Origin: Promethearchaeota archaeon | Lineage (GTDB): Archaea; Asgardarchaeota; Lokiarchaeia; Sigyniarchaeales; SOKP01 | Length of the DNA stretch: 31,291 nt | NCBI GenBank assembly: GCA_016839745.1 | Contig: JAEOTS010000149.1 | Span: forward strand, 1 to 31,291 | Reading direction: 5' to 3' | Shown here: positions 1 through 24,538 of the stretch, piece by piece | Layout of the letters: each line of letters begins with the position of its first letter | Position numbering within the stretch: position 1 is the first letter of the stretch | The notes under the pieces: generated by a model | Database searches by the model: none | What the model was told of the DNA's origin: nothing | Seen by the model: only the letters and a program-made list of their open reading frames with translations | Program-made: the position numbers and the translations under genes

Positions 1-89
1 ATCTATAGTAATAAAAATTTCCGAAATGCTTATTAAAGTTAATTTTTAGAGATTTAGAATTATAGAATCAAGTAAAATAGTTATTTCAA

Positions 90-293
90 TTAAAACGCTA
101 AAACAACGGAAGTATTTAAATAAAAATCTTTTCTTATTCCCTCCTCTATATTCCTAAAATTAACTTTATGCTTGCCTTCTTCATAATCTATATAGTGCGG
201 TATCATTCCGGCTTCTATTAAAATATCCCCAATATCTTTAACGCTAAGTTCGGAAATTGTTCCTTTTTTGTATTCTCGTTTATATACGATTTT
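90..293 (-). pseudogene. Start-less gene fragment, unknown family (KIVYKREYKKGTISELSVKDIGDILIEAGMIPHYIDYEEGKHKVNF...)
   Basis: Manual translation gives 67 sense codons with protein-like composition between TAG (296-294) and TAA (92-90), with no start codon at the 5' end. Confidence 0.3.
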
Positions 294-399
294 CTAAGAA
301 TTACCAATGAGTCCTACCCTACCTATTTAAACGGTACGAATTCTCATTATTCGGAGTTAAATAACAAACTTTTAATAATTTTGAAGAGGATTATTGGTT

Positions 400-654
400 A
401 TGCCAAGTGAAATTCCTTATTGTCCTGTGTGCAACCATAAAACATTGTTAGAAAAACAATTTAGTTGGCTTTGGTTTTTTCTTACTGGAGGGGCTTACTT
501 GTTTTATTACTGGATAAAACCTGCGGACAGGTGTACGGTTTGTGGAGCTCGCTTGACTCTTAGTAATTCGCGGTCTGGATTCTGGTGTTGTATTTTATTT
601 TTTGGCGGTATGTCGTTGGTCCTAATAATATTCCTATTTATTTTTACACCGTGA
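400..654 (+). CDS. Small membrane-associated Zn-ribbon protein (LITAF-like layout: CxxC - hydrophobic segment - CxxC, plus C-terminal TM)
   Basis: CPVC...WLWFFLTGGAYLFYYW...CTVC; GAGGA at 386-390 upstream of ATG 400 (ORF track starts at TTG 394). Confidence 0.65.
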   Translation: MPSEIPYCPVCNHKTLLEKQFSWLWFFLTGGAYLFYYWIKPADRCTVCGARLTLSNSRSGFWCCILFFGGMSLVLIIFLFIFTP

Positions 655-658
655 ATAG

Positions 659-860
659 AAGTAGTAAATCAAGTAAAGTAGGCACCTCGCCCAAAAATCC
701 ACATGTTTTATACGCCATAAAAAATTCAACGCGAGGGCAAAACACAACTGAGTTAGTGCACTGTTTGGATCGCGTGTGAGAACTGATGTGCGCGGTTACC
801 TACCTTACTTACTGCTTAGGTGGAAAATCGCCCTAAAACTGCCAGCGAGATTGCGAGATT
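659..860. ncRNA. Candidate structured ncRNA or MITE-like fold-back element (element 1)
   Basis: GC-rich island in AT-rich DNA; long imperfect inverted repeat 659-686/794-817; inner stems CCTCGC/GCGAGG (685-690/731-736), AAACA/TGTTT, CGCG/CGCG (771-774/791-794); further hairpin TTAGG...CCTAA (816-836). Confidence 0.5.
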
Positions 861-973
861 ATTAATTTGTCAAGATTTATATACCTAATTTTTTATAATT
901 AACATTTTCCTATAGTATCCCTTTTTTCAACAATTCAAAAATATAGATCGTGGCTCAAGTTTTTGGGATCAGT

Positions 974-2578
974 TTATCGCTTGACAATTCTGCCACAGTT
1001 AAGACAATAAACTCGTCCCTTCGTTAAAAGTGTATGCAAGGATTGAGGATTCAAAATATATCTGCACTTATTACACTCAATAAAACGCAAATCTGAATGA
1101 TTAGTTTTTTTCACCTTCATTTTTTCCCCTTTTACATTGATATTCGATTCTATTGAAGAATCTCTATAGACTAATTCTGCAATTTTGTGAAAAATTTTAT
1201 AGACATTATCTCTGTTAATTATAGATATTTCAAAGTAAGTAGCATTTAAGTTTTCACTTATTTGCTCTGCCACTATTTTATCTCTTCTTTTCTCAAATTC
1301 TAAATCTTCCTTTATCCTAACTATAAATTTTGGGATTTGTCTATATGTATCTGAATTCAGAAAATTGTAAAACTGAACCATATAATTTGTCCTAGAATCA
1401 AAAACGAGAATAATAGCCTTAGCATCTTTGAGGTAAATTGGAATCATAACAGAGCTCAATTTTTCTAAAATATCCCAGACCATCAAATTAACTTTCGCAT
1501 TATCTTTTTCTAAATAGATAGACACTCCAATCAAATTAAAAGGAAAATTTTTTTCTTCATTTGGAGTAACAATTTCAGTTAACAAACGCGATTTTTTAGA
1601 ACTATTTCCTAGCAATAAAACCTTATGGGATTTGTCTTGACGACCTTCCTCTTTTGGTGGTTTTAAAAGATAACCTTCAGAGTGGAAATCTTGAATCTGT
1701 TGATCAATTACGTGAAGAATGTCGGAAATGTTAGAATTAGAGTTTTCATCAATATTTTCTAAGAAATTTTCTAATACGTCTTTTATGCTGAATAAATAAC
1801 GGGGGATATACCTTATCCATGGCTTATATGTAGCTATTTTGGGTTTAAATTGAACAACTGATATAATAATCGCTTTACTATTTGGAAGTTTTAGAGTTTG
1901 TAATAATATATTTTCAATTAAGGTCGGAAAATTACGTAGACTTGAAATTAAAAACCTCACTAGAATTTTTGGATCAGTTGAGAGTTTCCTAATAAGATCA
2001 TTTGATTCCAATATTGTTCGGAATTCAAATGGGCTAAATTCACCAATATATCCTTGATTAACGAGATATTGAACTACAGAAGGGTATCCACTTTCGAGTC
2101 TTTGCGCAATCTCCTCTTTATACACCTTTTTTGCTTTTAGATCTCCGAGTTTAGCCAATTCTCTTAATAATGGAAAAGATAAATTGCTCATTAGTATCCT
2201 AGTATCGTAATCACATTCGACCCAAGTTTGAATATTTGAACAATGTCCCCAGAATTCTTGTTCAGGAGTGATGTCATGGTTCTGATTTGGAGTGGGAGCA
2301 GCCATTGGTCCAGTAACAATTCTATTTCGGTATAAATGCTCATTATATACTTCAGTAGCTTCATCTATAGAATCAACCTCCTCATATCGAGGGATATCCT
2401 CTTTTACAATGTTTAAGACTAAACGTTTACATTGTCTAAACAGTTTTCTGTTAATGTAAAGATTAGTTTTTCTATTCTCTAATTTGAGCGTTATAAATTG
2501 ATTAATCTTTTTCGAAATCGTAGTTTCTCTGTTATAATATCGGTTAAAATTTCTTAAATCTTTTTCCCTCTCAATTAA
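974..2578 (-). CDS. Multidomain protein: Lokiarchaeal 'EFWGHCSN' N-terminal domain, degenerate Rab/Roc-like small GTPase domain and C-terminal Zn ribbon; true start lies upstream of ATG 2305
   Basis: Frame stays open about 90 codons upstream of 2305 (KINQFITLKLENRKTNLYINRKLFRQCKRLVLNI...SIDEATE), matching the start of this family as I recall it; HKVLLLGN, LMVWDI, AKAIILVFD and YFEIS motifs of the Rab fold; CNKC...CLNC at the end. Confidence 0.8.
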   Translation of the reverse strand, partial: LIEREKDLRNFNRYYNRETTISKKINQFITLKLENRKTNLYINRKLFRQCKRLVLNIVKEDIPRYEEVDSIDEATEVYNEHLYRNRIVTGPMAAPTPNQNHDITPEQEFWGHCSNIQTWVECDYDTRILMSNLSFPLLRELAKLGDLKAKKVYKEEIAQRLESGYPSVVQYLVNQGYIGEFSPFEFRTILESNDLIRKLSTDPKILVRFLISSLRNFPTLIENILLQTLKLPNSKAIIISVVQFKPKIATYKPWIRYIPRYLFSIKDVLENFLENIDENSNSNISDILHVIDQQIQDFHSEGYLLKPPKEEGRQDKSHKVLLLGNSSKKSRLLTEIVTPNEEKNFPFNLIGVSIYLEKDNAKVNLMVWDILEKLSSVMIPIYLKDAKAIILVFDSRTNYMVQFYNFLNSDTYRQIPKFIVRIKEDLEFEKRRDKIVAEQISENLNATYFEISIINRDNVYKIFHKIAELVYRDSSIESNINVKGEKMKVKKTNHSDLRFIECNKCRYILNPQSLHTLLTKGRVYCLNCGRIVKR

Positions 2579-2581
2579 TCT

Positions 2582-2734
2582 TTACTTCGCTTTCTTCAAT
2601 CTTAGGTCAATATCTCTTTTGTCCTCTGGTGATAGTTCCTTTTGGAGATTATAAAAACAATTAGGACAATTTATCCGAAACGGTCGAACCATTACATATT
2701 TGCAATTGGGGCATACTACTCTTTGTAGTCTCAT
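2582..2734 (-). CDS. 50-aa Zn-ribbon protein (MRLQRVVCPNCKYVMVRPFRINCPNCFYNLQKELSPEDKRDIDLRLKKAK), absent from the ORF track
   Basis: Manual translation; two CPNC motifs; ATG 2734, TAA 2584-2582; same frame as the downstream gene. Confidence 0.7.
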   Translation of the reverse strand: MRLQRVVCPNCKYVMVRPFRINCPNCFYNLQKELSPEDKRDIDLRLKKAK

Positions 2735-2891
2735 TTGTCAAATTTTGAATAATCACACTAGATTTTAAATGTATCTTTAAACTCTTCATAAAAGTATGTA
2801 TTATGATTTGAAAGGAATTTAAATGGAAAAAAAAAGAATTATCTTGGTTTTGGTTTTAAGGTCTTAAAACGCTTGATACAATACCTCAATA

Positions 2892-2899
2892 TTTATAAA
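2892..2899 (+). promoter_or_regulatory. Putative archaeal TATA box for element 2
   Basis: TTTATAAA about 25 nt upstream of the abrupt start of the GC-rich hairpin at 2925. Confidence 0.4.
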
Positions 2900-2922
2900 C
2901 AACATTTGCTTTTTGGTATATA

Positions 2923-3023
2923 GAGCGACAAAAATCGGACGGGTTCCGGTTTGGTTATCGCACATCGCGAGATTGAGTACCTCAATTGTTCTGATCCAGT
3001 TTCTTTTGCGGTTTATATCTGCC
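2923..3023 (+). ncRNA. Candidate small structured RNA (element 2)
   Basis: Hairpin GCGA..ATCGGA-CGGGT-TCCGGT..TCGC (2925-2961) followed by ACA; hairpin ATTGAG-TAC-CTCAAT (2972-2986); U-rich linker; hairpin GCGG/CTGC (3008-3022); G-U pairs favour the + strand. Confidence 0.45.
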
Positions 3024-3099
3024 AAGATTATTTGTTCGATTTATGGAAAAATAATAGGACTGATAATTATTATTTAATAGCTATAGGTATAAGTATATC

Positions 3100-3200
3100 A
3101 GGTGAATTTGCTAAACAGAGTTGGAAGGTCGAAAGCTCAGACCTTTGGCATATTTGCTGGAAGCATCAACACGCTGGTGGTCAAGGAGTAAATGTCACCT
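3100..3200 (+). ncRNA. Candidate three-way-junction RNA of about 100 nt (element 3)
   Basis: 13-bp closing stem AGGTGA-ATTTGCT (3100-3112) / AGTAAAT-g-TCACCT (3187-3200); hairpins AAGGTC/GACCTT (3125-3145) and CATCA/TGGTG (3164-3179); TATA-like TTTAATA at 3073-3079. Confidence 0.5.
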
Positions 3201-3437
3201 TAAAAACAATAATAAACAAAGTCTAAATTACTTCGTCCCATCTATCTAAATAAAAAATTTAAATTTCACGGAATTTCTAAAATGAATGAGACGATTATCG
3301 AGAGAAGAACCTTTAAATTACACTTAGAATTAGTTTTTGTATGGATTTTTTAGTCGAGGGAGAAGTTGTTGTCTTGGAAGGATAAAAGTTGAGAAAATAA
3401 AGAGGAAGAAGATCAAAAATTTGAGCCAACTAAAGGA

Positions 3438-3629
3438 TTCTTAAAAAATCTCGGCAAGTACGCGAAATCTCCATTATCAGCATTAGAAGAATTTGATTTT
3501 TTCGCACAAATTCAACCTATTTTTGAGAAAAAATACAATTGTAAAGTGTTAATTATGTCTGAAAATGATTCGCAAGAAAAGAAAGCAGCTCAAGCTTTAC
3601 CTGGAAAACCTGCAATTATAATAAAATAA
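3438..3629 (+). pseudogene. leuS: Orphan 3' fragment of archaeal leucyl-tRNA synthetase
   Basis: FLKNLGKYAKSPLSALEEFDFFAQIQPIFEKKYNCKVLIMSENDSQEKKAAQALPGKPAIIIK*; the terminal KAxxAxPGKPAI motif is typical of archaeal LeuRS; in-frame TGA at 3390-3392 and no suitable start. Confidence 0.75.
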
Positions 3630-3806
3630 TGGTTAATATTTATATTTCTAAAAATTACATTAATAATTATATTCTACTTCTTTTGCTTAAAATTTGACAT
3701 TAACTGCAGTATTTTAACTAATACTGTTATTCGTTAAAAAACAGAGTGAGATTAAATAAAAAAAAGGATTTTGGTTTTGTAAACCTTTTCTAAAGTATTT
3801 TACTTT

Positions 3807-5036
3807 TTATTTAAATGATGAAATCAAACCTAACTCGGAATCTAACGGATTTCCTAAGCAGAAATACACATTATTCTTAGTATCGACAAAAAACGACCCA
3901 GTAGTCCCTACTTCTAAGGGATCTGGAGAAGTATATCTTCGCGCTACCAGAGGGTCTGAAAAAATTTCAAATAAGTCTTTGATGTTTAATTTTCCGTCTT
4001 GACTATAAGTTTGGCATAATTCTGAGACTCTATTATAACGTTCTACATATTTATTAGGATAAATCATAAAAGACTTAAAATAGGGATTCTCGTATATATT
4101 TGCGTCAAATGTATATTTTCCTCTCCAAACTCTTTCAACTGAATAAGAATTAGGAATTGTTTCTATTGCTATTATATGACGCCTATCTCTAATAATATAA
4201 TTCCAACCTAATGTAAAATCGTTATCAAGGATAATATTCTTAGCTTGTCTGACATTCTTAGCGTTTTCCAACGCACTTCTATAGATTACTGAAATAGGTT
4301 TGCCTACACATCCTACATTAAATACTTCAAGTAAATTGGTCGAAATTGCTACTCCGTATTTATTAACTCCCCCCATTGCTAACATACTTCCCGTTCTGAA
4401 GGAGAAAACCTTTTTGCCTTGAATTTTAGTATAAACCCAAGATGCAGTAGGTTGCATAAGAAGTGAGATATCTATAGTTTGCCCTAAAATAGCTTTTCTT
4501 CCCATATTAGAAGCAATAGCAGTGCACCCCGCAACTATTAGAGGTGGTTGAGGGTATCCAGAAAGTATCGGGATAATTTTGCCGTAATATATGTCCCAGA
4601 AGCAATTCTGAGCTAAAACATCCAAGAAATCTATTGTTATCTCGTAAATCTGATTCATAAAAGGAATTTGAACGAAATCAATTGCAGCGGCTATTCCATG
4701 CATTTCCAAAATGTTTTCTTCAGAAAAGTAATCGAGGTAATCCAAAGCATAATAGATTGCCACATCATAAGAGAGGCCTATTTGCTCTGCTTGAAGCATA
4801 ATCATAAGTTTCATCCACGCTGTTTGAAACGCTAAATTCTTACCTTCCAAATATCCAAGGGTGTAGTAGTTATCCGCTGCAACATATAGGTAAGGCTGAC
4901 CATTTGAGAATTTCCATTTAGCATAATTTGAATAATCTGAATCTCCTTCACAAGCTACAGTTGAATTTAAAAAGCAAAATCCTATAGAAAAAGCCATAAT
5001 AAATACTAGTAACGTTGATTTATTTCTTAATCGCAT
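3807..5036 (-). CDS. Secreted C45-family autoproteolytic Ntn-hydrolase/acyltransferase (NAAA/AAT-like)
   Basis: N-terminal signal or TM segment, YTLGYLEG, GCTAIA nucleophile Cys, LGQTID, GGVNKYGVAISTN, WNYII. Confidence 0.85.
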   Translation of the reverse strand: MRLRNKSTLLVFIMAFSIGFCFLNSTVACEGDSDYSNYAKWKFSNGQPYLYVAADNYYTLGYLEGKNLAFQTAWMKLMIMLQAEQIGLSYDVAIYYALDYLDYFSEENILEMHGIAAAIDFVQIPFMNQIYEITIDFLDVLAQNCFWDIYYGKIIPILSGYPQPPLIVAGCTAIASNMGRKAILGQTIDISLLMQPTASWVYTKIQGKKVFSFRTGSMLAMGGVNKYGVAISTNLLEVFNVGCVGKPISVIYRSALENAKNVRQAKNIILDNDFTLGWNYIIRDRRHIIAIETIPNSYSVERVWRGKYTFDANIYENPYFKSFMIYPNKYVERYNRVSELCQTYSQDGKLNIKDLFEIFSDPLVARRYTSPDPLEVGTTGSFFVDTKNNVYFCLGNPLDSELGLISSFK

Positions 5037-6184: not shown

Positions 6185-6213
6185 ATATAGATCCAATAGT
6201 GTTATATAACTAA

Positions 6214-6999
6214 TTAGTTAATGGATTCTTCGGCAGCCTTAATTATCTCATAAAGAGATTTAGATTGAAGAGATGCTCCTCCAACTAAACCTCCATCAAT
6301 ATTTTCTTTATCAAATATCTCTTTTGCATTAGTTGGTTTAATTGAACCTCCATATTGAATTCTGATTGTTTGCGCTGTGTTTTTTCCATAGATTTTAGTT
6401 ATGAGTTCGCGAATAAATATGTGAATCTCTTCAGCTTGCTCTGGAGTAGCTGTTTTTCCTGTGCCAATTGCCCAAATTGGTTCATAAGCTATAATAACTC
6501 TGCTTAGTTCTTCACTCTTTAAATCTTTAAAAGTTAGATTAAATTGGTTTTCAATTACTTCTTTAGTCCTGCCAGCTTCCCTTTCTTCTAAGTGTTCTCC
6601 TATACATACGATAGGTTTTAAGTCAGATTTTAAAGCTGTTTTTAATTTTTTGTTTATTAAATCATCACTCTCGTTAAAAATATCCCTTCTTTCGCTATGA
6701 CCTAGAATAACATATTCACATCCTAGATCGTTTAAGAAAATAGGAGAAACTTCCCCTGTAAAAGCACCTTTCTCCTCATAATACATATTCTGTGCCCCAA
6801 CCATAATATTTGAGTTTTTAACTGTTTGTATGGTCGAGAATAAAGCTGTAAATGGTGGAGCTATTACAATATCGACAGATTTCATTTTCTCCACTAAAGG
6901 GATCAATTCTTTAAGCATTTTAATTGCTTCTGAGGGCGTTCCCTTGTTCATCTTCCAGTTCCCACCAATAATTGGATTTCTCATTTTAATTTCACTCAA
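6214..6999 (-). CDS. tpiA: Triosephosphate isomerase, bacterial/eukaryotic type (start may be ATG 6984)
   Basis: GNWKMN, GAFTGEVS, ILGHSERR, AYEPIWAIGTG, QYGGS, DGGLVGGASL. Confidence 0.98.
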   Translation of the reverse strand: MSEIKMRNPIIGGNWKMNKGTPSEAIKMLKELIPLVEKMKSVDIVIAPPFTALFSTIQTVKNSNIMVGAQNMYYEEKGAFTGEVSPIFLNDLGCEYVILGHSERRDIFNESDDLINKKLKTALKSDLKPIVCIGEHLEEREAGRTKEVIENQFNLTFKDLKSEELSRVIIAYEPIWAIGTGKTATPEQAEEIHIFIRELITKIYGKNTAQTIRIQYGGSIKPTNAKEIFDKENIDGGLVGGASLQSKSLYEIIKAAEESIN

Positions 7000-7110
7000 T
7001 TATGTTTTTTATTATATTTAGATAAAACTCAATTACTATTTCAATTTAAGCTTTAATAGCAGAGTACAAACCTAAATGATATAATTTTATAAAAAGAGAT
7101 AGGAAGAATA

Positions 7111-7614
7111 CTATTCTTCTTTTTTAATTTTTTCTGCTAATTTTGTAGCTTCAAGAAGCTTTTTTACCTCATCTACATCAGGAGGTATAACTTTTGGTAA
7201 ACCTAATTGATCTCTTCTTCTTTCTATAGCAGGTTGCATAGGTATCGCTTTCCCATTTTCTAAGATTGCAGTCGCTTGGGTAGTGTAGTAATCGGGAGCT
7301 TCACCTTTTTCAACGCTTAGATTTTTTAAAATGGTAAAAATCTCTGTGAGTTCCACTTTCTGAGGGCATACCTCATCACAAGTATCACAAACCGTACATC
7401 CCCATATGTTAAATGCATTTTCTTTGCCAAAGATTTTTTCTTTTAACCCAAGAAGAGCATCCAAAATTAATCTCCTAGGATTATAGCGTCCATTTGTTAT
7501 TTGTGCCACAGGACAAGCACCACTACAAGTAGCACATTGATAGCAATAAGCTAAGGTACCACCTATGTCAGATTGGATGATTTGATTTCGAAATTCAAAA
7601 TCTATAGTTGCCAT
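7111..7614 (-). CDS. hdrC: Heterodisulfide reductase subunit C (2x[4Fe-4S])
   Basis: CYQCATCSGACP, YNPRRLI, WGCTVCDTCDEVCPQ, C-terminal RDQLGLP. Confidence 0.92.
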   Translation of the reverse strand: MATIDFEFRNQIIQSDIGGTLAYCYQCATCSGACPVAQITNGRYNPRRLILDALLGLKEKIFGKENAFNIWGCTVCDTCDEVCPQKVELTEIFTILKNLSVEKGEAPDYYTTQATAILENGKAIPMQPAIERRRDQLGLPKVIPPDVDEVKKLLEATKLAEKIKKEE

Positions 7615-7797
7615 AATTATTTTTTAAGTTTTTTTAAACTTATATTAATAAAACTTACCCTTAAATTTTAAATTAATTCTTTTTAATTTTACGCAAACAA
7701 AAGGGTCAATTTCTTAAAGAAATCAGAAAATAAAAAAAATTCAAAAAATTTTTGGCACTTTCTATTGGAAATGAATTTAATTATTTCTTATAATGAT

Positions 7798-8166
7798 TTA
7801 ATTCATTTTGGCAACTATTTCTCTAATTGTATCTTCACTTCCCGCCCCTATCATAATTCCGTCTCTTACTAAGGGTTGACCTTGAATTTCAATGATTCCA
7901 TTGTATAAATCTCCATTTTTGAAGAAAAGCAGAGTAGGAATAGCAGTTATATTAAATTTATTACCTAAAGGCCTATTTTGGTCCAGATCAATCTTAATTA
8001 ACTTAAATAATCCTTCATCATTAAGCTTTTTCAGTATAGGTGAAACAAATTTACAGGGACCGCACCAGGTTGTAAAAACATCTATTAAAACGTTCCCTTC
8101 CTTCATATCATCAGTAATTTCGATACCAAAATCTTTCAATTCTTCGATTCTCGTCATATTCATCAA
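7798..8166 (-). CDS. trxA: Thioredoxin (start may be ATG 8163 or 8157)
   Basis: WCGPC active site, IPTLLFFKNG. Confidence 0.95.
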   Translation of the reverse strand: MMNMTRIEELKDFGIEITDDMKEGNVLIDVFTTWCGPCKFVSPILKKLNDEGLFKLIKIDLDQNRPLGNKFNITAIPTLLFFKNGDLYNGIIEIQGQPLVRDGIMIGAGSEDTIREIVAKMN

Positions 8167-8368
8167 TTTAGATATTTGAAAAAGTTAGAATTTTTAAATT
8201 ATATGATTATTATTAGTCGAAATAAATATTTAATTTCTTTTATTAGTATCATTTATAAAACATTAAGCCCTATTCGGGAAAAGTCGTGTATTTTTTTTCA
8301 CAGCCAATAGAATTAGAAAGAATTTCGACTAATCATTTTTCAAAAAGTGTGACACAAAAAAGATTTAA

Positions 8369-8983
8369 TTATGAATCCATTGAACTCTTATCTGCAATTG
8401 CGTTTAATTGTGCTATTAACCAGCAAATTTCTTCATAGGTTGATGAGGACTCGAAAATTTCTTGCGTTTTCTTAAGTATATCGCTCTTAGAAGCTTTGTT
8501 TGGACCTTTAATAAGATCCAATTGCATCTCAGCTAAGAGTTGACATAAATTTTTGTAAGATATATTTTTTTTTGATAGCTTATGTGCAGCTAATGTTATT
8601 TCAGCTTCTAAATCTGGACTTATTCCTGCTTCAATTAGTTCCAGAGTTTCTTCAAATTTAATTTCTAACTCTGGTCTTCTCTCTAAATTTTGTTTTTTGA
8701 TTTCCCCTTTCATTAGAGCGTCCTTAATGGCTATAAATGCCCCATATTCTTTATTTTGGGTTATAATTTGAATAATAGCTGCGTTTTCATTTTTTTCATT
8801 TCTCAGTTTTGTTTTGTCTATTGATAAGTCTCTTCTTTTCCTAGATATATTTGATCCAAACCACAAATACATTGTTTTAGAATCGTCAATTAAATATACT
8901 TCATCTTCTTGAAAATCGGCTTTACTAATCTTTTTTAATCCTCCCCTAACGCCAACACTATATAATTTCATTTGTGATCTCAT
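8369..8983 (-). CDS. Gelsolin-domain protein with C-terminal helical domain (Asgard 1DGelX type)
   Basis: FQEDEVYLIDDSKTMYLWFG gelsolin core, IITQNKE; C-terminal repeated helical unit ending TYEEICWLIAQL. Confidence 0.8.
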   Translation of the reverse strand: MRSQMKLYSVGVRGGLKKISKADFQEDEVYLIDDSKTMYLWFGSNISRKRRDLSIDKTKLRNEKNENAAIIQIITQNKEYGAFIAIKDALMKGEIKKQNLERRPELEIKFEETLELIEAGISPDLEAEITLAAHKLSKKNISYKNLCQLLAEMQLDLIKGPNKASKSDILKKTQEIFESSSTYEEICWLIAQLNAIADKSSMDS

Positions 8984-9051
8984 TACAGATTATTAATATA
9001 GCTAATAATTACACTCTCATTTAGTATTAAAATGAATAAAAAAATAAACCC

Positions 9052-9699
9052 TTAGATTTTTAAGGATTTTTCTGTTAAAATTTCTACTTTAATCTTAGAA
9101 TCTTTCTTCGCCATAATATCCTTAAATGAATTTAAATCCTTTTCCCAATTGTGCATAGGAACAACTATTTCAGGCTGGATATCTACAGCAGCATCAGAAG
9201 CTTCTTCAAAATCCATGGTATAGGTTCCTCCACATGGAAGTAATGCGACAGTTATTTTTCTATCCTTGAGATCCTTCATTTCAGGTATTCTTTCAGTATC
9301 ACCCGCATGATAAACACTTTTACCGGCCGATTCTATTATAGTTCCCGACCAATTATTGCTTTTTGGGTGAGTTCCTTTCTTTATTGTGTATGCTGGAACA
9401 AGTTCTATTGAAAAATCTTTATAAGCGAACCCTTCCCCAAATTCTAAACCTTGGCCATCAAATTTTTTTAAACTGCTTTCAATGCTCGCAGGACCTAATA
9501 AAATTGTATCATCTCTCCAAATCTTCTTAATATCTGATCTCGAGAAATGATCTCCATGCGTGTGAGACGAGACTATAATATCAGCTTTTTCTTCTCCGTC
9601 TTTAATATTATAAGGATCCAAATAAATAATCCTACCGCTAAACATTTTTATTTTAAAACTGGCATGCCCTAACCAAAAAATTTCCATTTGAGCGTCCAT
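9052..9699 (-). CDS. Metallo-beta-lactamase-fold Zn-dependent hydrolase
   Basis: WLGHASF, SHTHGDH, YHAGDT, LLPCGGTYTM, VPMH. Confidence 0.93.
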   Translation of the reverse strand: MDAQMEIFWLGHASFKIKMFSGRIIYLDPYNIKDGEEKADIIVSSHTHGDHFSRSDIKKIWRDDTILLGPASIESSLKKFDGQGLEFGEGFAYKDFSIELVPAYTIKKGTHPKSNNWSGTIIESAGKSVYHAGDTERIPEMKDLKDRKITVALLPCGGTYTMDFEEASDAAVDIQPEIVVPMHNWEKDLNSFKDIMAKKDSKIKVEILTEKSLKI

Positions 9700-9876
9700 A
9701 TATATTACCTCGATTTTTTTTAAGAAATTTAAAGTATCATATCTATAAATGATTTATTAGATTATAATTCTACCTTGAAAAACATACTAATCATCTATGA
9801 ATTGAATTGAAAATATTAATATTGATGCCTTTTTTTCATTAATTATTCAAATTTTTATGCTTAAAGTGAAAGACTG

Positions 9877-10377
9877 ATGAATTTAACAAGGAAAGATTTG
9901 ATCCAATCAGATGCTACAATGAATCAAATGCGTAATATGGTTTATCATTTAGAAAGATTTATGAAAATCAACGGAGTATCTGGAACAAGAGAAAATTTAA
10001 GGAGAATGGGGCGAAATATTGCCCGAACTTATACAAAATATTGGACTCCAATTGATTATGTTAATAAAGCTAATGTAAATAATGTAATAACTACAATCTA
10101 TAAAAAAATCTTGAACAGCTCCGTTTCAGTAGAACTCGATGAAATTAATAAAATTATTATGGTAAAAGATAATGATTGTTCTTTATGTAAGTATCAATTT
10201 AACGATATCGATGTTGCGGGGTGCGAAATAATTGCAGCAATGATATCAGAAATTATCTCTTGTATAAACAAAGAAAAACCTTCGTTGATACTACAACCAC
10301 TTGATATTCTAGAATCTCGAACATTTGGACATAAATCTTGTATTCAAAGCTTTAAATACAAAGAGGGAGGTGTTTAA
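9877..10377 (+). CDS. V4R / TRAPP Bet3-like protein
   Basis: LRRMGRNIA (compare Bet3 LxxMGYNIG), CSLC, GCEIIAAMI, SRTFGHKSC. Confidence 0.75.
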   Translation: MNLTRKDLIQSDATMNQMRNMVYHLERFMKINGVSGTRENLRRMGRNIARTYTKYWTPIDYVNKANVNNVITTIYKKILNSSVSVELDEINKIIMVKDNDCSLCKYQFNDIDVAGCEIIAAMISEIISCINKEKPSLILQPLDILESRTFGHKSCIQSFKYKEGGV

Positions 10378-10379
10378 TA

Positions 10380-11855
10380 ATGGGAGCAGTTCAATGGTTA
10401 TTAAAAAAAATCACTAAGGTTTTTGGAAGGAACACGAATTCTCTCTTTTATGTTCTTCTTTATCGCGAAATACTAAAGGAAATAAATGAAATTACGAAAA
10501 ACGAAGAGGATAGTGTGATTATACTTAGAGAGATCGGGAAAAAAGCTGCAACAGAATCATGCGAGCGTCACACGGCTGTTTTTAAATGGATGCCTGGGAG
10601 CCCAAGAAAAGTAATAGAATATTTTGAACTTTTATGGGTTGTTGTTTTTGGAAAGGAATTGGAAGAGGGGGACTTGACGTACGAGGAACTTCCTAAAGAA
10701 GGCTCGAAACATAACGATTATATTGTTAAAATAAAAAGTTGTCCACTTTGCGCAGGGTATGGGGTAGATGATGAAGATAATTTCAACTTTCAAAAAGTAA
10801 GCAATAAAGATACTGAAGGTCTCGCGTGTGGTTTAACGGGCATGTTAGAATCCGTTGCTAACTTCATTCTAAAGATAAAAAGAAGCGATTATAGGATTAA
10901 TATAGTAGAAAAGAAATGCTTAGCGAAAGGTGATGATCATCTTCAGTTTATATGTAAAATTTACGATACTTTGGAGTGGAAAGAGCTAAGTTCCGTTCGA
11001 ATTCAAGATAAAATTAAATCTGGAGTGAAATTTGAAAAATCTGTAGAAGAAGATGTTGTTCAAGAAACTAAGCTTGATATTATTGATAAACTTCAAGAAG
11101 TCTTGTCCCTTGATAAAATTGAGGAATTACTCGATGAACCCTTAGAAGGTATTAAAAACAAAGTTGCTGAGATCATCGAAGATAAATTGAATATGGAAAC
11201 CGAACACTTCTTCGATTACTTTAGAAATTACGAGGACGATCTTCTAAGAATCATAGGTTATCTCGCAGTTCACTTACTTAATGAATATGGTGGATTAATC
11301 AAAAAAATTTTGGAAAATACCACATTTGCTAAAATTGCGGGGTATCTTTTTAAACAGCTAAGAGAATTTGTGTTATTATTCATCCCTATTGATGTTATAA
11401 ACGATTATCATCAATTATTAATAAGTTTTCTAGATGGATTAGCTCCAGCTGAAATGGTTGAGAATATTAGGCAATTTTCAGGCAAAGATGATATTAATTT
11501 TCTCTTTGAGGGCGCCCAAATGGCACTTGAAAATTTAGGTATTGATTTTTCAGAGTTAAAAGATAATGTTTGGGAAGAGATAAGAAGAGAACGGGAAAAT
11601 GGATTGATTTCTTCTGATCAATCAATGATAGAAAAAACTGAAGAAAACATCCCGAAAGTTATTAAGATTATGCAGGAAATTTTAATGTTGTTAAGTGATA
11701 TTTTAACACTTCCTATTCGCGTTTTAATTTCTGAAAGTCATTACGGTTTAAAAACAGCAATAAATTCAGTAGTTTCTGAAGAGGAAGGTTTATTTGGTAG
11801 TATAAAGGATCGCATCGATACAATATTCGATTATGTCCAAGAGATAAGAAAATAG
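10380..11855 (+). CDS. V4R / TRAPP Bet3-like domain fused to a long acidic alpha-helical C-terminal region
   Basis: LFYVLLYREILKEI..LREIGKK, LWVVVFGKE, CPLC, CGLTGMLE, EKKCLAKGDDH; starts 2 nt after the previous stop with GGAGG inside the upstream gene. Confidence 0.75.
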   Translation: MGAVQWLLKKITKVFGRNTNSLFYVLLYREILKEINEITKNEEDSVIILREIGKKAATESCERHTAVFKWMPGSPRKVIEYFELLWVVVFGKELEEGDLTYEELPKEGSKHNDYIVKIKSCPLCAGYGVDDEDNFNFQKVSNKDTEGLACGLTGMLESVANFILKIKRSDYRINIVEKKCLAKGDDHLQFICKIYDTLEWKELSSVRIQDKIKSGVKFEKSVEEDVVQETKLDIIDKLQEVLSLDKIEELLDEPLEGIKNKVAEIIEDKLNMETEHFFDYFRNYEDDLLRIIGYLAVHLLNEYGGLIKKILENTTFAKIAGYLFKQLREFVLLFIPIDVINDYHQLLISFLDGLAPAEMVENIRQFSGKDDINFLFEGAQMALENLGIDFSELKDNVWEEIRRERENGLISSDQSMIEKTEENIPKVIKIMQEILMLLSDILTLPIRVLISESHYGLKTAINSVVSEEEGLFGSIKDRIDTIFDYVQEIRK

Positions 11856-11869
11856 AAAAAAAAAAAGAA

Positions 11870-12586
11870 TTAAGCTTTTAATCCTAAATACATCAATATT
11901 ATACTACTTATCATTGCTAATCTTACAATAACTAGCCCTATTCCCGGATCAACTAAGGCATCACCTGCACCGGCAACTGAAAATACTATAAATCCAATTC
12001 CCAATAACAAGAATTTTTTTCTTAGTACCCCTGTTGATTTTATAGCCTTCGCTAAAAAACCAATTCCATGGAAGACTAAGATTGATAGGATAAATAGTGC
12101 CATTAATAGAAAAGTTGGATATAACGTTACAAAACTAGAATCAATTATCTCTCCTGTTGGTGGTGGAGGTATATTAAATGTCTCTGCAGTATGAAACCAT
12201 AGAAAGTATTCAAATACTACACCTAGAACCAAGTAAATAATAACAATTATCCATTTTCTTTTAGGTGTTAGTAATTCTCCACCAATATACATTGCGCAAA
12301 CTAAAGCTGGGGCAATCCATAAATAGCTTAAGATACCATATATACCAAGCCCCCAAATTTCACTATTTACATTAGAACCTGTTATTATTACCATTAAGAA
12401 ATCTGTAGCTGGTCCCAGATACAAAAATCCTATGAAGAAAATAGAAAATCCTAAAACCGTAAGAAGCTTTGCTTTCAACTTTCTTGCTTTAAAAATAGAG
12501 ATTAAACCAAGTACTATTCCAACTGATATAACACTTGCCGCTGTTAATCCCTCTAACCAAAATGTCCACGATGTAGGAAAATACAT
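11870..12586 (-). CDS. Integral membrane protein with about 7 TM helices (Asgard-expanded 7TM type)
   Basis: Seven hydrophobic segments; KAIKSTGVLRKKFLLL loop. Confidence 0.75.
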   Translation of the reverse strand: MYFPTSWTFWLEGLTAASVISVGIVLGLISIFKARKLKAKLLTVLGFSIFFIGFLYLGPATDFLMVIITGSNVNSEIWGLGIYGILSYLWIAPALVCAMYIGGELLTPKRKWIIVIIYLVLGVVFEYFLWFHTAETFNIPPPPTGEIIDSSFVTLYPTFLLMALFILSILVFHGIGFLAKAIKSTGVLRKKFLLLGIGFIVFSVAGAGDALVDPGIGLVIVRLAMISSIILMYLGLKA

Positions 12587-12830
12587 TTTTTAAAACCATC
12601 TTTTTTTTTAATATTATCTTTATAAAAAAAAATACTTACTTAAAAATTGAAAGAGAATTTCTATTTAAATTTATAGATAATATACAGAACCTATATCCTA
12701 TTTTTTTTAGTTCTAAAATTGTAGAAGATATTAATAACTCTTTATCATAACGTATACTTATTCTTTGATCTTAACTCTCAATAAAAATCATTAAAGAATA
12801 TAGATTGCAGTTTAAAAATAAATTAGTATT

Positions 12831-13202
12831 TTAATCTAAAAGCGAAGCAATTCTATTGGAAACGCTTTGGATGTTTAGAAACACCATTCCTAAACTAGAA
12901 TTAGGACTACATAATGTGCATAAAATAGCGTTATCACCAGCTTTAGAGAGGATAATAATTCCGTTTAAACCCTCGATAAGAATCCTTTTTAATTCACCCC
13001 TATCAAGTTCCTCAACCGCTCGTTCTGAAACGCTCTGAATAGCAGCAGACATAGCCGAAACAATTCCATCATTCACATTTCTGCTTAAAACGGAACAAAT
13101 TGGGAGCCCCTGAACGCTAACTATGGCGGAACCTTCTATGTCACTATTCACCGCAGACAGTTTTCTTAGTAAATCCGTGAGCTCACTAATATTTTCAGAC
13201 AA
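12831..13202 (-). CDS. Roadblock/LC7 (MglB-like) protein
   Basis: DIEGSAIVSVQGLPI, VSAMSAA, ELDRGELKRILIEG, LGMVF; GGAGG 9 nt before the TTG start. Confidence 0.93.
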   Translation of the reverse strand: MSENISELTDLLRKLSAVNSDIEGSAIVSVQGLPICSVLSRNVNDGIVSAMSAAIQSVSERAVEELDRGELKRILIEGLNGIIILSKAGDNAILCTLCSPNSSLGMVFLNIQSVSNRIASLLD

Positions 13203-13422
13203 CCATTACTACCTCCCTAATTTTTGACGAAGGTTTTACTAAATTAAAAATGTTTTCACTCAATTACAAATCGACCTAATGAGTGATTAATTCAGAACTT
13301 ATATTATCTATTAAAATTAACTTTATTTAATTATTAATGTTTACCTTATTTTTTCTATTTTATTAAGTTTAATATCCTTATTTAAAAAATATTTTTATCA
13401 ACTTTTACATTTACATATTTTA

Positions 13423-14403
13423 ATGACTGAGAATAATAATTTAAAAAATGAATCTGCAAAAAAAAAAAATCGAGAAGAAGCAGAAAAAGATGAAGAAGAG
13501 AAGAAACATAAAATCGAATCTCTAACTAAAGCGGGAAACATTGCTCAAGAAGTAAAGACATTCATTAAACCACAGTTAAAAGTTGGAGCAAATATATTTG
13601 ACTTAATAGAAAAAACAGAAACGAAAATTATTGACCTGGGTGGGAAATGGGCGTTTCCTATTAATGTGAGTATAAATAACATTGCTGCCCACTACACATC
13701 TCCGATAAAAGACGATGAACTTACTATCAAAGATAGAGATATTGTTAAAATCGATTTAGGCGTTCATATAGAGGGGTATATTGTAGATACTGCTTTTACT
13801 GTAAGTTTTAACGATGATAAAGCCCTTGAAAACATTATTCAAGCAACAGAAGTCGCTTTAGAAGCAGCAAAAATGATGGCTAAACCTAAGATTAACACGA
13901 AAGAATTGGGTAAAAAAATTGAAGATATTGTTAAAGGTTTTAAATATAATCCAATTAAAGAACTAGGTGGACATCAAATTGAAAGGTGGACTGTTCATGG
14001 AAAAAAACAACTACCTGAATTAGGTACTCAAGGTGGTGATATAATGGAGGAAGGAGAAGTATTCGCAATTGAAATATTTGCTTCGACTGGAAAGGGTTCA
14101 GTACATTCTACTAATGCTTCATACATTTATGAATTAAATCCCTTTATAGGGAGAGTACCTTTAAGAAGGAAATTATCTAAACAAATATTAGGATATATTA
14201 ATAAAAATTATAAAACTTTACCTTTCGCAGAAAGGTGGTTAGCAAAAGATTTTAGAATGGGAGTAATATTTGGACTTCAGGAGCTAGTTAATACAAATAA
14301 AGTAAAAGCTCATTATGTTTTAGCAGAAGAAAAAGGCGAGTTTGTTGCACAATCTGAAGAGACTATATTAGTTATCGAGGATGGATATAAACAATTAACT
14401 TAA
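13423..14403 (+). CDS. map: Methionine aminopeptidase type II
   Basis: AFPINVSINNIAAHYT, KIDLGVHIEGYIVDTAFT, GHQI, AIEIFAS, AQSEET. Confidence 0.97.
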   Translation: MTENNNLKNESAKKKNREEAEKDEEEKKHKIESLTKAGNIAQEVKTFIKPQLKVGANIFDLIEKTETKIIDLGGKWAFPINVSINNIAAHYTSPIKDDELTIKDRDIVKIDLGVHIEGYIVDTAFTVSFNDDKALENIIQATEVALEAAKMMAKPKINTKELGKKIEDIVKGFKYNPIKELGGHQIERWTVHGKKQLPELGTQGGDIMEEGEVFAIEIFASTGKGSVHSTNASYIYELNPFIGRVPLRRKLSKQILGYINKNYKTLPFAERWLAKDFRMGVIFGLQELVNTNKVKAHYVLAEEKGEFVAQSEETILVIEDGYKQLT

Positions 14404-14466
14404 CAATAATTTCATACAATTTTGTTTAAAATCTTTACAAGAGGTAATAAAGTTAACTCCAACGGT

Positions 14467-15120
14467 TTATTCTACCCTCTTTTTCCCAATAATATAAATC
14501 TCAGCTAGATAATCTTTTATTTGTGGATACGAGTTAGAATTTATAGAGGCAAAGCTTCTAAATGCATTTATATCAAATATTTTATTCATATCAGAAGCAG
14601 GAAGAGGTTTGAGAAAATAAGAACCCGATTCAACAAAAATTAAATTCTCTTTAACAATTTCTTCTAATCTAGGAAGATTATACATAAATTTATGACCCAC
14701 CATTTTATCTCCTTCTGATAATTCTAATGATTTACAAATTCCCATGATTTCTCCTAGCAATCGATTTATACTCCATGCATTTGGACAAGTTAAAAATGCA
14801 AATCCGTCATCTTTCAAAAGATAATTAACTTTTTTTAAAACATTTACAACCTCTACCCTAGAAAAATGTTCTATAAAAGCAGAGCTTACGACTAAGTCAA
14901 ACTTTTCTTTTGATTCAAACTCCATTATGTCCGTCTTCACATAATTTATTGTAGGGCTTATAATAACTGGATTTAAATCTACGATAGTAAGTTTTTCAGA
15001 AATTCTTGAAGTATATTTTCCATCTTTTCCTCCAATATCGATAACTTTTTGAAATTTCTTTTTTTTTCCATATTCCTGAATCTTATCAATCATTAGATTA
15101 TTCAAAAATTCTTCCAACAT
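14467..15120 (-). CDS. Class I SAM-dependent methyltransferase
   Basis: VIDIGGKDG, FDLVVSSAFIEH, LKDDG..LTCPN. Confidence 0.88.
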   Translation of the reverse strand: MLEEFLNNLMIDKIQEYGKKKKFQKVIDIGGKDGKYTSRISEKLTIVDLNPVIISPTINYVKTDIMEFESKEKFDLVVSSAFIEHFSRVEVVNVLKKVNYLLKDDGFAFLTCPNAWSINRLLGEIMGICKSLELSEGDKMVGHKFMYNLPRLEEIVKENLIFVESGSYFLKPLPASDMNKIFDINAFRSFASINSNSYPQIKDYLAEIYIIGKKRVE

Positions 15121-15215
15121 TATACTTATTCCTTAAAACCTATTTTTATATAGATTTTAATTTTCTATTATGTATAAAAATTTTTAAATCTAAATTAAGT
15201 TTTTAAACAATAGAA

Positions 15216-24436: not shown

Positions 24437-24538
24437 AGCCCGGTGGTGTAGTGGCCAAGCATCTGGGGCCTTGAACCCCGTGACCACGGTTCGAAAATTA
24501 TCGAGAAAATTCGATAATCGATATTCCGTGCCGGGCTA
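24437..24538 (+). tRNA. tRNA-Gln(TTG) with a 29-nt non-canonical intron in the T loop (59/60; 24496-24524)
   Basis: Acceptor AGCCCGG/CCGGGCT (A1-U72), anticodon stem TGGGG/CCCCG, anticodon TTG at 24471-24473, T stem CACGG/CCGTG, bulge-helix-bulge; spliced length 73 nt, CCA not encoded. Confidence 0.92.

What the first reader, a model, noticed from the sequence alone, without database searches (positions are those of the whole stretch)
659..3629. Cluster of three unannotated structured ncRNA-like elements inside a leuS-bounded accessory island (best candidate for a new system)
Seen: within about 2.5 kb there are three sharply GC-enriched non-coding blocks (659-860, 2923-3023, 3100-3200). Each folds into several stems and each has a TATA-like box about 20-25 nt from one end (876-883, 2892-2899, 3073-3079). 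They flank a Zn-ribbon/pseudo-GTPase fusion gene, and the region ends in a leuS 3' fragment. Established: in AT-rich archaeal genomes, GC-rich non-coding islands are a classic sign of structured RNA genes. By eye none shows tRNA, 5S, SRP or RNase P hallmarks. Inference: an RNA-rich module, such as an RNP system or the RNA cargo of an integrated element, that I cannot match to a known family.
Basis: partly seen in the sequence, partly recalled or inferred. Interest (0 to 1): 0.8.

Follow-up and report, generated by a model that had tools for sequence, protein, structure and literature searches.

The report
Broken two-RNA nuclease module remnant
One of the three GC-rich blocks is an intact gene for a new, conserved folded small RNA, the second is a stump of its partner RNA, and the third matches nothing; in related Lokiarchaeal DNA the two RNAs sit back to back in front of an NYN RNA-cutting enzyme gene, which is missing here.

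Summary
The three GC-rich non-coding blocks are real (44-47% GC against 21-28% flanks), but they are not three equivalent RNA genes.

- **Block 1** (minus strand, about 854 to 668) is an intact member of a new structured RNA family, here called R1. It has a conserved TATA promoter and a ~20-bp closing helix supported by covariation. I found 22 loci.
- **Block 2** shares only a promoter core and its first ~43 nt with a second new family, RNA-2. RNA-2 is transcribed divergently from R1 elsewhere. The 3' part of block 2 is unrelated and lacks the helices that define RNA-2.
- **Block 3** has no homolog anywhere and does not fold better than shuffled sequence, so it stays unresolved.

In related genomes and metagenome contigs the usual unit is RNA-2, a shared promoter, R1, then an NYN ribonuclease gene about 300-320 nt downstream. 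NYN followed R1 in all 7 metagenome loci with enough sequence to test. This MAG has no such NYN gene, so the window holds a remnant.

The remnant lies at the right end of a foreign segment of at least 19 kb. That segment starts inside leuS on another contig and ends at 3438/3439, next to the orphan native leuS 3' end.

No Rfam family, tRNA (including single-intron forms) or conserved protein explains the blocks. The function is inferred only: partner or antitoxin-like RNAs of the nuclease. Earlier notes of this scan reported NYN-plus-RNA pairs on other DNA.

The parts
668..854 (-). R1 small RNA gene (block 1). The ends are approximate: the start is inferred about 24 nt downstream of the TATA box, and the 3' end is placed at the end of the closing helix. 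The 5' arm lies at about 813-795 and the 3' arm at about 690-670.
   Evidence: The covariance model core 665-818(-) scores 137-148 bits, the top of the family. It is 93% identical to G014 over 667-917 with unrelated flanks. Covariation is shown. Fold z-score is -2.3. In the paired columns there are 36 G.U pairs against 16 A.C.
855..917 (-). Conserved promoter region of R1. The TATA box is TATATAAA, the complement of 876-883. The region also contains the tandem GCGAGATT x2 at 845-860 in the leader.
   Evidence: Promoter columns are invariant across 6 loci. The 25-nt promoter pattern recovered 14 metagenome loci. The tandem repeat is shown.
880..918 (.). Promoter core, copy A (ATACCT...GTAT), attached to R1
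   Evidence: It aligns with copy B at 2880-2919 (28 of 39 identical; score 35 against 18.2 +/- 3.3 for shuffles, 0 of 500 as high). It also aligns with the shared bidirectional promoter of other loci.
974..2734 (-). Gene with Zn-ribbon parts and a degenerate Ras-like domain. It has a single in-frame TAA at 2582-2584 and lies between the two promoter-core copies.
   Evidence: Translation. Pfam gives Ras (E 1.8e-8) and a weak Zn_ribbon match. It is not linked to the RNAs in most other loci.
2880..2919 (.). Promoter core, copy B. It includes the self-complementary TTTATAAA at 2892-2899 and is oriented to drive block 2 on the plus strand.
   Evidence: 74-91% identical to the RNA-2-side promoter in G008, G056 and 13 of the 14 metagenome loci.
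2923..3007 (+). Block 2: a derivative of RNA-2. Positions 2923-2964 are homologous to the RNA-2 5' end. Positions 2965-3007 are unrelated and end in GTTTCTTTTG.
   Evidence: The 5' 43 nt score 34 against G008a RNA-2, against 14.2 +/- 2.2 for shuffles (0 of 300 as high). The 3' part is at chance level. The RNA-2 model R3 finds nothing here. Fold z-score is -1.2.
3100..3200 (+). Block 3: an orphan GC-rich block whose ends can pair. Its status is unresolved.
   Evidence: No DNA homolog in 42 genomes of the genus or 154 of the order. No paralog in its own genome. No similarity to RNA-2 or to the R1 promoter. Fold z-score is -1.4. No Rfam or tRNA match.
3293..3364 (+). Truncated 5' remnant (23 codons, MNETIIERRT...) of a membrane-protein gene. 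In metagenome locus L146 the same gene follows RNA-2.
   Evidence: 88% identical over 33 nt and collinear with L146.
3439..3629 (+). Orphan native 3' end of leuS (last 62 codons plus the stop). The junction with foreign DNA is at 3438/3439.
   Evidence: 84% amino-acid identity to G014 LeuRS but 55% to this MAG's own intact leuS on contig C68. The downstream genes (AAT-family acyltransferase-like gene, Pfam PF03417; 285-aa gene; TIM) follow as in G014, G015 and G011. Contigs of relatives diverge exactly at 3439.
394..654 (+). 86-aa Cys-rich membrane ORF convergent with R1. It occupies the place where NYN lies in complete modules.
   Evidence: ORF, no Pfam match. No NYN homolog in the window or the MAG.

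Best explanation
The stretch 659-3629 is the broken remnant of a recurrent Lokiarchaeal accessory module. The remnant sits at the right end of a foreign DNA segment that interrupts leuS.

**The complete module**, as seen in relatives, has three parts:
- a compact bidirectional promoter;
- two divergently transcribed structured small RNAs: R1 (about 185 nt, closed by a ~20-bp helix) and RNA-2 (about 190 nt, with a 13-bp long-range helix, an inner hairpin and a U-run);
- an NYN-domain ribonuclease gene about 300-320 nt downstream of R1.

**In this window:**
- Block 1 is an intact R1 gene with its promoter (shown).
- Block 2 is the other promoter half plus the first ~43 nt of RNA-2, fused to unrelated sequence (shown).
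- The two halves are separated by the Zn-ribbon/Ras-like gene.
- The NYN gene is absent (shown).
- Block 3 is not part of the module as known elsewhere. It is either strain-specific sequence debris or an unverifiable private RNA (unresolved).

**Inferred function of the complete module:** the RNAs are partner or regulator RNAs of the NYN nuclease. They would bind it, or be cut by it, and so keep it in check, in the manner of RNA antitoxins. If so, the R1 copy here is an orphan RNA without its nuclease.
For: **R1 family**
- Promoter and RNA are conserved in 10 loci of 7 of 42 genomes of the genus and in 12 metagenome loci.
- On the first 8 sequences, 85% of cells pair against about 42% with slid partners, and 20 of 37 pairs show changes on both sides.
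- On 12 new sequences the closing helix is 92.5% paired.
- G.U pairs outnumber A.C 36 to 16, and the promoter lies on the same strand.

**RNA-2 family**
- 5-6 genome loci and 10 metagenome loci.
- 94.8% of cells pair against 28-50% with slid partners. 15 of 24 pairs change on both sides, and no shuffle of 500 reaches the observed values.

**Module arrangement**
- The two RNAs lie back to back in 11 loci.
- NYN (PF01936, E 8e-18; PADLOC NYN model, E 9e-15) follows R1 in G008 (3 copies), in G056, and in 7 of 7 metagenome loci with enough downstream sequence. Those loci were found through the promoter, not through NYN.

**This window**
- Window 2881-2964 is homologous to the promoter and the RNA-2 start.
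- The MAG has no NYN gene of this kind.

**Foreign segment**
- The leuS gene on contig C68 is chimeric. Its first ~660 residues are 75-95% identical to G014, its last ~270 only 40-61%.
- The native 3' end survives at 3439-3629, next to the ancestral neighbour genes.
Against: - No expression data exist. No RNA run holds the region.
- R1 has two internal U-runs that could stop archaeal transcription before the 3' arm is made.
- R1 also occurs without NYN: here, and in G014, G016, G001, G023 and G008:C30.
- NYN genes of other subclades (30-43% identity, in 26 of 42 genomes) have no R1 nearby. The link could therefore be one ancestral juxtaposition that was then copied.
- The RNAs are not tandem-repeat arrays like known RNA antitoxins.
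- The inner helices of R1 are poorly kept in the metagenome set (54-75% paired).
- The covariation alignments were fitted to the models.
- The related loci are kin, not independent samples.
Confidence: 0.6

Rival explanations
1. R1 is not a free-standing RNA. It is a portable promoter plus a structured 5' leader or attenuator that controls whatever gene lies downstream. The two internal U-runs act as conditional terminators, and the closing helix forms only on read-through transcripts.
For: - A same-strand gene follows R1 within about 70-450 nt in most loci: NYN in 11, a Ras-family gene in G016, and a 168-aa gene in G001 and G023.
- Two U-runs are conserved inside the helix-enclosed part.
- The promoter alone also drives a protein gene in G002 and L144.
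Against: - In G000 and G014, which have the best-conserved copies, a convergent gene follows at once, and homology stops exactly at the end of the 3' arm.
- The R1-NYN spacer holds further TATA-like boxes, including one about 45 nt before the NYN start.
- The partner RNA-2 ends in a helix plus U-run at the edge of the module, with no gene behind it in G008.
Confidence: 0.2
2. All three blocks are independent, functional, novel structured RNA genes that work together with the Zn-ribbon/pseudo-GTPase gene as one RNP system or as the RNA cargo of an integrated element.
For: - All three are GC-enriched, with a TATA-like box at a suitable distance.
- In this genome, 33 of the 75 GC-rich non-coding islands not overlapped by a 70-99-codon open frame are known RNAs. 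RNase P RNA here peaks at only 48-49% GC.
- A homolog of the GTPase gene (37% identity) lies 3.3 kb from the module in one metagenome contig.
Against: - Block 3 has no homolog in 154 genomes of the order, in its own genome or in the module loci. Neither it nor block 2 folds better than shuffles.
- Block 2 lacks the helices that define its family.
- The central domain of the GTPase gene occurs widely without the RNAs.
Confidence: 0.12
3. The R1 element acts as DNA, not RNA. The two ~20-bp arms would be inverted repeats of a small mobile element (MITE-like) or a recombination or protein-binding site. The apparent covariation would come from both arms being read by the same protein.
For: - There are several copies in one genome (4 in G008).
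- The 251-nt unit is 93% identical between G000 and G014 with unrelated flanks.
- The arm sequence itself is well conserved.
Against: - The conserved unit is not bounded by the arms. It extends about 100 nt further on the promoter side only.
- There is no target-site duplication.
- G.U pairs outnumber A.C 36 to 16, which a DNA repeat would not favour.
- Helices inside the unit also covary.
Confidence: 0.06

Closest known systems
Type III toxin-antitoxin systems ToxIN, CptIN and TenpIN (PMC3401426, PMC5086642, PMC8860590)
   Same: A separately promoted non-coding RNA gene lies directly upstream of an endoribonuclease gene. The pair sits on accessory or mobile DNA and can be present in several copies. 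Orphan RNA copies occur.
   Different: Known antitoxin RNAs are tandem arrays of short repeats that the toxin cuts. R1 and RNA-2 are single, complex folds. Known toxins are ToxN/AbiQ-type, not NYN. Here there are two RNAs, divergently transcribed, and the host is an archaeon. Neither toxicity nor neutralisation has been tested.
AbiF with its ncRNA RCd22 (abiF motif, RF03085) of a Clostridioides difficile prophage (PMC12373285)
   Same: A structured, non-repetitive ncRNA upstream of a nuclease-like toxin gene. According to that paper's abstract, the RNA neutralises the toxin in cis and in trans by direct binding.
   Different: The protein there is of the Abi_2/AbiD/F family, not NYN. No Rfam family, abiF motif included, matches the window. 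The organisms are bacteria, not Asgard archaea.
Orphan structured small RNAs closed by a 5'/3' terminal helix (architecture only; comparison from my own knowledge of Y RNA and 6S RNA)
   Same: A stand-alone promoter, a long closing helix that encloses inner hairpins, and a size of about 150-200 nt.
   Different: No sequence or model match. No Ro- or RNA-polymerase-related context. The distribution is patchy and limited to one genus rather than housekeeping.
Intron-containing archaeal tRNA genes, the other kind of GC-rich island in this window
   Same: A GC-rich non-coding island with an upstream TATA box that both ARAGORN and Rfam miss. The example is tRNA-Gln at 24437-24538.
   Different: Cutting every possible single intron of 8-120 nt from blocks 1-3 never yields a tRNA, while the control is recovered 49 times.

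Membership tests
Any Rfam 15 family | Covariance-model match at the gathering score, or at least E <= 10 | tested here: not met
   No match in the window at gathering score. On 300-4000 at E <= 10 there were only two chance hits, both outside the blocks. Caveat: the same search misses a clear intron-bearing tRNA.
tRNA (plain or with one intron) | Cloverleaf recognised by ARAGORN, directly or after removal of one intron at any position | tested here: not met
   No tRNA found in the window. None found among 6210-16724 single-deletion variants per block, while the control tRNA-Gln was found 49 times. Genes with several introns, split genes and permuted genes were not tested.
Housekeeping RNAs (RNase P, SRP, 5S) | Model match, and conservation across relatives | tested here: not met
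   RNase P RNA lies on C130 and SRP RNA on C109. 5S was not found in the MAG. Blocks 2 and 3 have no homolog in the 42 genomes of the genus, and block 1 only in 7 of them. This rules out an essential conserved RNA.
Archaeal C/D-box or H/ACA guide RNAs | C box (RUGAUGA) and D box (CUGA) with a K-turn; or a hairpin with a pseudouridylation pocket, a K-turn and an ACA box | tested here: not met
   Judged by reading the sequence. There is no RUGAUGA in any block. The block 2 hairpin before ACA (2962-2964) has only a 2-3-nt internal loop and no K-turn. No snoRNA model matched the blocks.
R1 family (defined here) | Conserved TATA promoter and leader, a ~20-bp closing helix, and a match to models R1/R2 | tested here: met
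   Block 1 scores 147.7 bits with R1 and 136.9 bits with R2. It was itself one of the sequences used to build the models, so independent support comes from the other loci.
RNA-2 family (defined here) | 5' end ACCGACAAAAAU, a 13-bp long-range helix, an inner 9-bp hairpin, a terminal U-run, and a match to model R3 | tested here: not met
   Block 2 has the promoter and the 5' end. R3 gives no match at E <= 1 with filters off, and the 3' part is at chance similarity.
Type III toxin-antitoxin | An endoribonuclease toxin gene directly downstream of the RNA gene | tested here: not met
   Not in this window or this MAG. In homologous loci a NYN RNase gene follows R1.
Type III toxin-antitoxin | Antitoxin RNA made of tandem direct repeats | tested here: not met
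   The only repeat is an 8-nt unit present twice, at 845-860.
Type III toxin-antitoxin | The RNA neutralises the toxin by direct binding | not testable with these tools
   This needs expression and binding assays.
Integrative element inserted in the 3' end of a gene | A restored target gene at one junction, the displaced 3' fragment at the other, identical att core repeats, and an integrase | tested here: inconclusive
   A chimeric leuS on C68 and an orphan native 3' end at 3439-3629 are shown. However, the replaced part (about 270 codons) and the surviving fragment (62 codons) do not match in length, the two 3' ends are only 70% identical, no integrase lies in 1-3438, and the contigs do not join.

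The most novel reading that the evidence does not exclude
R1, RNA-2 and the NYN ribonuclease form a previously undescribed archaeal RNA-controlled nuclease system, of the toxin-antitoxin or defence type. It would have two structured RNA components made from one bidirectional promoter. The orphan R1 kept here at 93% identity to another species would be a functional 'antidote without poison' that protects against incoming copies of the module.
Probability: 0.25. Interest if true: 0.7.

Novelty: new variant of a known kind. Interest (0 to 1): 0.5.

Why it matters
Very few non-coding RNAs of Asgard archaea are described beyond the universal ones. This work defines two RNA families supported by covariation that are absent from Rfam. 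It also shows that they form a fixed unit with a NYN ribonuclease on accessory DNA.

If the RNAs control the nuclease, this would extend RNA-antitoxin-type control to archaea and to NYN nucleases, and would add a two-RNA design. Earlier notes of this scan report NYN-plus-RNA pairs in many bacteria and in Asgard genomes, so the theme may be general. These archaeal loci give it a testable case.

For this window itself the practical result is more modest. It holds one intact orphan RNA gene, one stump and one unexplained block, all inside foreign DNA that rebuilt an essential gene (leuS).

The work also shows that ARAGORN and Rfam miss intron-bearing tRNAs in this genome. 'No hit' therefore carries less weight here than usual.

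Tried and rejected
**Known RNA classes, all negative**
- Rfam at gathering score and at E <= 10.
- ARAGORN, directly and after removing every possible single intron.
- RNase P, SRP and 5S are elsewhere in the MAG or not found.

**Protein-coding readings**
- ORF 2951-3226 has no homolog in 154 genomes of the order (best per-genome E 2e-4 at 22% identity). It also has none in the 5.8-billion-protein collection at near lengths.
- A six-frame search of 2735-3440 against the MAG's own genome found nothing.
- Blocks 2 and 3 are not leuS debris.

**Homolog searches for blocks 2 and 3**
- Genus and order DNA searches gave only AT-rich chance hits.
- The block 3 hairpin pattern in genome and viral collections gave only chance matches limited to the pattern.
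- There is no similar GC island in the MAG's own genome.

**Other tests that led nowhere**
- The first metagenome pattern, requiring both R1 arms, found nothing.
- No RNA holder was listed among public runs, so expression could not be examined.
- The shared TAGGTATA upstream of blocks 1 and 3 is not enriched in the genome (185 observed against 277 expected). The sequence upstream of block 3 is not significantly like the R1 promoter.
- A small conserved ORF inside R1 was rejected, because the frames differ between copies (read from the alignment).
- Trans pairing of R1 with RNA-2 was no better than shuffles in a crude duplex test.
- R1 was not found next to NYN genes of other subclades.
- No overlap joins contig C68 to the start of the window.


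Full report
**1. The observation**

The window is a whole contig (C127) of a 3.5-Mb MAG that is 89% complete and has 32.3% GC.
- The three blocks have 44.1%, 46.5% and 45.5% GC. Their flanks have 21-28%.
- With a crude mask of ORFs of 100 codons or more, the genome has 175 non-coding islands that reach 43% GC, about one per 20 kb. Three within 2.6 kb is a real local excess.
- Of those islands, 24 overlap ARAGORN tRNAs, 6 more carry a T-loop motif and 3 are RNase P or SRP RNA. About 100 are overlapped by an open frame of 70-99 codons. 42 are unexplained.
RNase P RNA itself peaks at only 48-49% GC.
- Independent assemblies confirm the sequence. A 2968-nt contig spans 756-3723, and a piece from a second study spans 3393-3562.

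**2. Known classes are excluded, with one caveat**

Rfam gives nothing in the window at gathering score and nothing at the blocks at E <= 10. ARAGORN finds no tRNA.

These negatives are weaker than usual. Another GC island in the same window (24437-24538) is a clear tRNA-Gln(UUG) with an intron of about 27-29 nt in its T-loop. Both tools miss it, and ARAGORN finds it once the intron is cut out.

I therefore removed every possible single segment of 8-120 nt from each block and ran ARAGORN again. The control tRNA was recovered 49 times, and blocks 1-3 never gave a tRNA.

RNase P RNA and SRP RNA lie on other contigs.

**3. Block 1 is a real RNA gene of a new family (R1)**

*Homologs and boundaries*
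- A DNA search of relatives found a 251-nt stretch (window 667-917) that is 93% identical in G014. The flanks are unrelated on both sides.
- Partial matches occur in G008 and G056.
- On the minus strand the alignment shows an invariant TATA region, a conserved leader, and two arms that form a long closing helix.

*Distribution*
- A covariance model found 10 loci in 7 of 42 genomes of the genus: 8 clear matches and 2 weak, decayed ones in G001 and G023. Other genera of the family gave only marginal hits.
- A metagenome scan with the promoter pattern added 14 loci, 12 of which carry R1.

*Structure support*
- On the first 8 sequences, 85% of cells pair against about 42% with slid partners. 20 of 37 pairs change on both sides.
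- On the 12 new sequences the closing helix is 92.5% paired. The inner helices are weaker, at 54-75%.
- G.U pairs outnumber A.C 36 to 16, and the promoter is on the same strand. Both point to a minus-strand RNA.
- The true unit folds better than shuffles (z -2.3).
- The reading frames downstream of a shared ATG differ between copies, so a conserved small protein is unlikely (alignment).

**4. Block 2 is the stump of a partner RNA (RNA-2)**

- Window 2881-2964 matches the reverse complement of the R1 promoter region of G008 and G056, and then the sequence beyond it.
- That sequence is a second conserved RNA, transcribed divergently from R1 out of a compact shared promoter.
- RNA-2 starts with ACCGACAAAAAU. 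It has a 13-bp long-range helix and a 9-bp hairpin, and it ends in a U-run.
- Its model finds 5-6 genome loci and 10 metagenome loci.
- Covariation on the metagenome set is strong. 94.8% of cells pair against 28-50% with slid partners, 15 of 24 pairs change on both sides, and none of 500 shuffles reaches the observed values.
- Block 2 shares only the promoter core and its first 43 nt (score 34 against 14.2 +/- 2.2 for shuffles). Its 3' part is at chance level, and the model does not match it.
- The promoter core occurs twice in the window, at 880-918 with R1 and at 2880-2919 with block 2. The Zn-ribbon/Ras-like gene lies between the two copies.
- Further right, 3290-3345 matches the start of a membrane-protein gene that follows RNA-2 in metagenome locus L146. 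Window 2881-3360 is thus collinear with that locus, but its middle has diverged beyond recognition.

**5. Block 3 remains unexplained**

- It has no DNA homolog in 42 genomes of the genus or 154 of the order.
- It has no paralog in its own genome.
- It shows no similarity to RNA-2, to the R1 promoter or to the module loci.
- Its fold is not significant (z -1.4).
- The ORF that spans blocks 2 and 3 (2951-3226) is not a conserved protein.
- I cannot tell whether block 3 is a private RNA or debris. I lean towards debris.

**6. The complete module and its likely working**

*What is shown*
- In G008 (three copies) the order is RNA-2, shared promoter, R1, a spacer of about 300 nt, NYN, a terminator-like hairpin, a well-conserved ~200-nt element, and then further genes, one of them ParB_N-like.
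- In the metagenome loci, which were found through the promoter alone, NYN lies about 300-320 nt downstream of R1 in all 7 loci with enough sequence.
- The two RNAs are back to back in 8 metagenome loci, and in the 3 G008 copies.
- NYN matches Pfam PF01936 and the PADLOC NYN model.

*What is inferred*
- The RNAs are partner or antitoxin-like regulators of the nuclease. This compares with type III toxin-antitoxin systems (PMC3401426, PMC5086642) and with AbiF/RCd22 (PMC12373285).

*Reasons for caution*
- R1 occurs without NYN in six loci, this one included.
- NYN genes of other subclades lack R1.
- The RNAs are not repeat arrays.
- R1 has internal U-runs.
- Nothing has been tested experimentally, and no RNA data are available.
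- The main rival reading is that R1 is a portable promoter plus leader.

Earlier notes of this scan describe NYN-plus-RNA pairs on other DNA, including Asgard genomes. I took the type III-like comparison from them as a lead. I tested only the local association myself.

**7. The leuS setting**

- Relatives carry the gene order: radical-SAM-like gene (named from its sequence only, not Pfam-scanned), leuS, an AAT-family acyltransferase-like gene (Pfam PF03417), a 285-aa gene, TIM.
- In this MAG the left half of that order is on contig C68. There leuS is chimeric: about 660 residues are 75-95% identical to G014, and then about 270 residues are only 40-61% identical.
- The right half begins in the window with the last 62 native codons. 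These are 84% identical to G014 and 55% to C68.
- Contigs of relatives diverge exactly at 3439.
- Window 1-3438 is therefore the right end of a foreign segment of at least 19 kb that starts inside leuS.
- A simple site-specific integration is not established. The lengths do not match, the two 3' ends are only 70% identical, there is no integrase in this part, and the contigs do not join.
- One-sided homologous recombination with an illegitimate far junction fits equally well.

**8. Verdict**

What is present is one intact orphan RNA gene of a new family, one stump of its partner, and one unexplained block. Together they are the remains of a two-RNA-plus-NYN module whose nuclease is missing here.

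Noticed in passing
window 24437-24538 (+): A tRNA-Gln(UUG) gene with an intron of about 27-29 nt in the T-loop. ARAGORN misses it, and so does Rfam even at E <= 10. ARAGORN recovers it once the intron is removed. Similar tRNAs are probably under-called across this MAG: only 11-25 tRNAs were found, and 6 further GC islands carry a T-loop motif.
   Followed up: yes
window 2582-2584 within gene 974-2734 (-): A single in-frame TAA separates a 50-codon Zn-ribbon ORF from the rest of the Ras-like gene. The frame is otherwise open for 586 codons. It could be a fresh pseudogene, read-through, or two genes. The source-sample contig that spans it differs at only 4 places from the window.
   Followed up: partly
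G000 contig C68, leuS (L127 5915-8719): The MAG's only intact leuS is chimeric. The first ~660 residues are native-like (75-95% identical to G014), and the last ~270 are foreign-like (40-61%). Three extra ORFs are also inserted upstream of it compared with G014.
   Followed up: partly
L130 7973-8186 (G008:C32), also G008:C51, G008:C12 and G056:C48: A ~200-nt non-coding element downstream of NYN is 87-92% conserved, more than the NYN coding sequence (67-76%). It contains a TATA-like box and a stretch that resembles the R1 3' arm. The decayed R1 copy on G008:C30 is fused to its tail, with NYN deleted.
   Followed up: partly
RNA-2 5' end, the R1-NYN spacer and the NYN 5' end in L130, L145, L149, L150, L154, L155, L156; window 2926-2935: The motif (C)GACAAAAAU recurs about 25-45 nt downstream of each TATA-like box of the module. 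It also stands at the start of window block 2. It could be a shared start region or a binding site.
   Followed up: no
RNA-2 of G008a and G008c (L130 about 6556-6566; L132 about 3321-3331) against the R1 5' arm: RNA-2 carries UACCUUACUU, which is complementary to the R1 5' arm AAGUAAGGUA. In G008c both sides differ in step (GUUACUC with GAGUAAC). This hints at pairing between the two RNAs, but a crude duplex test was no better than shuffles.
   Followed up: partly
L156 12372-13586 (-) and L145 11468-11800: A homolog of the window's Zn-ribbon/Ras-like protein (37% identity over 484 residues) lies 3.3 kb from the RNA-2/R1/NYN module on one metagenome contig. A partial match lies on a second contig. 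This could be chance, because such genes are abundant in these archaea.
   Followed up: no
window 315-382 and G014:C166 1655-1722: A second short segment (81% identity over 68 nt) is shared by G000 and G014 downstream of R1. In both genomes it lies upstream of a convergent ORF, but the two ORFs differ (86 and 254 residues).
   Followed up: no
G000 whole genome: No 5S rRNA was found with RF00001, and the SRP RNA match is cut by the end of contig C109. Both probably reflect the incomplete assembly.
   Followed up: no
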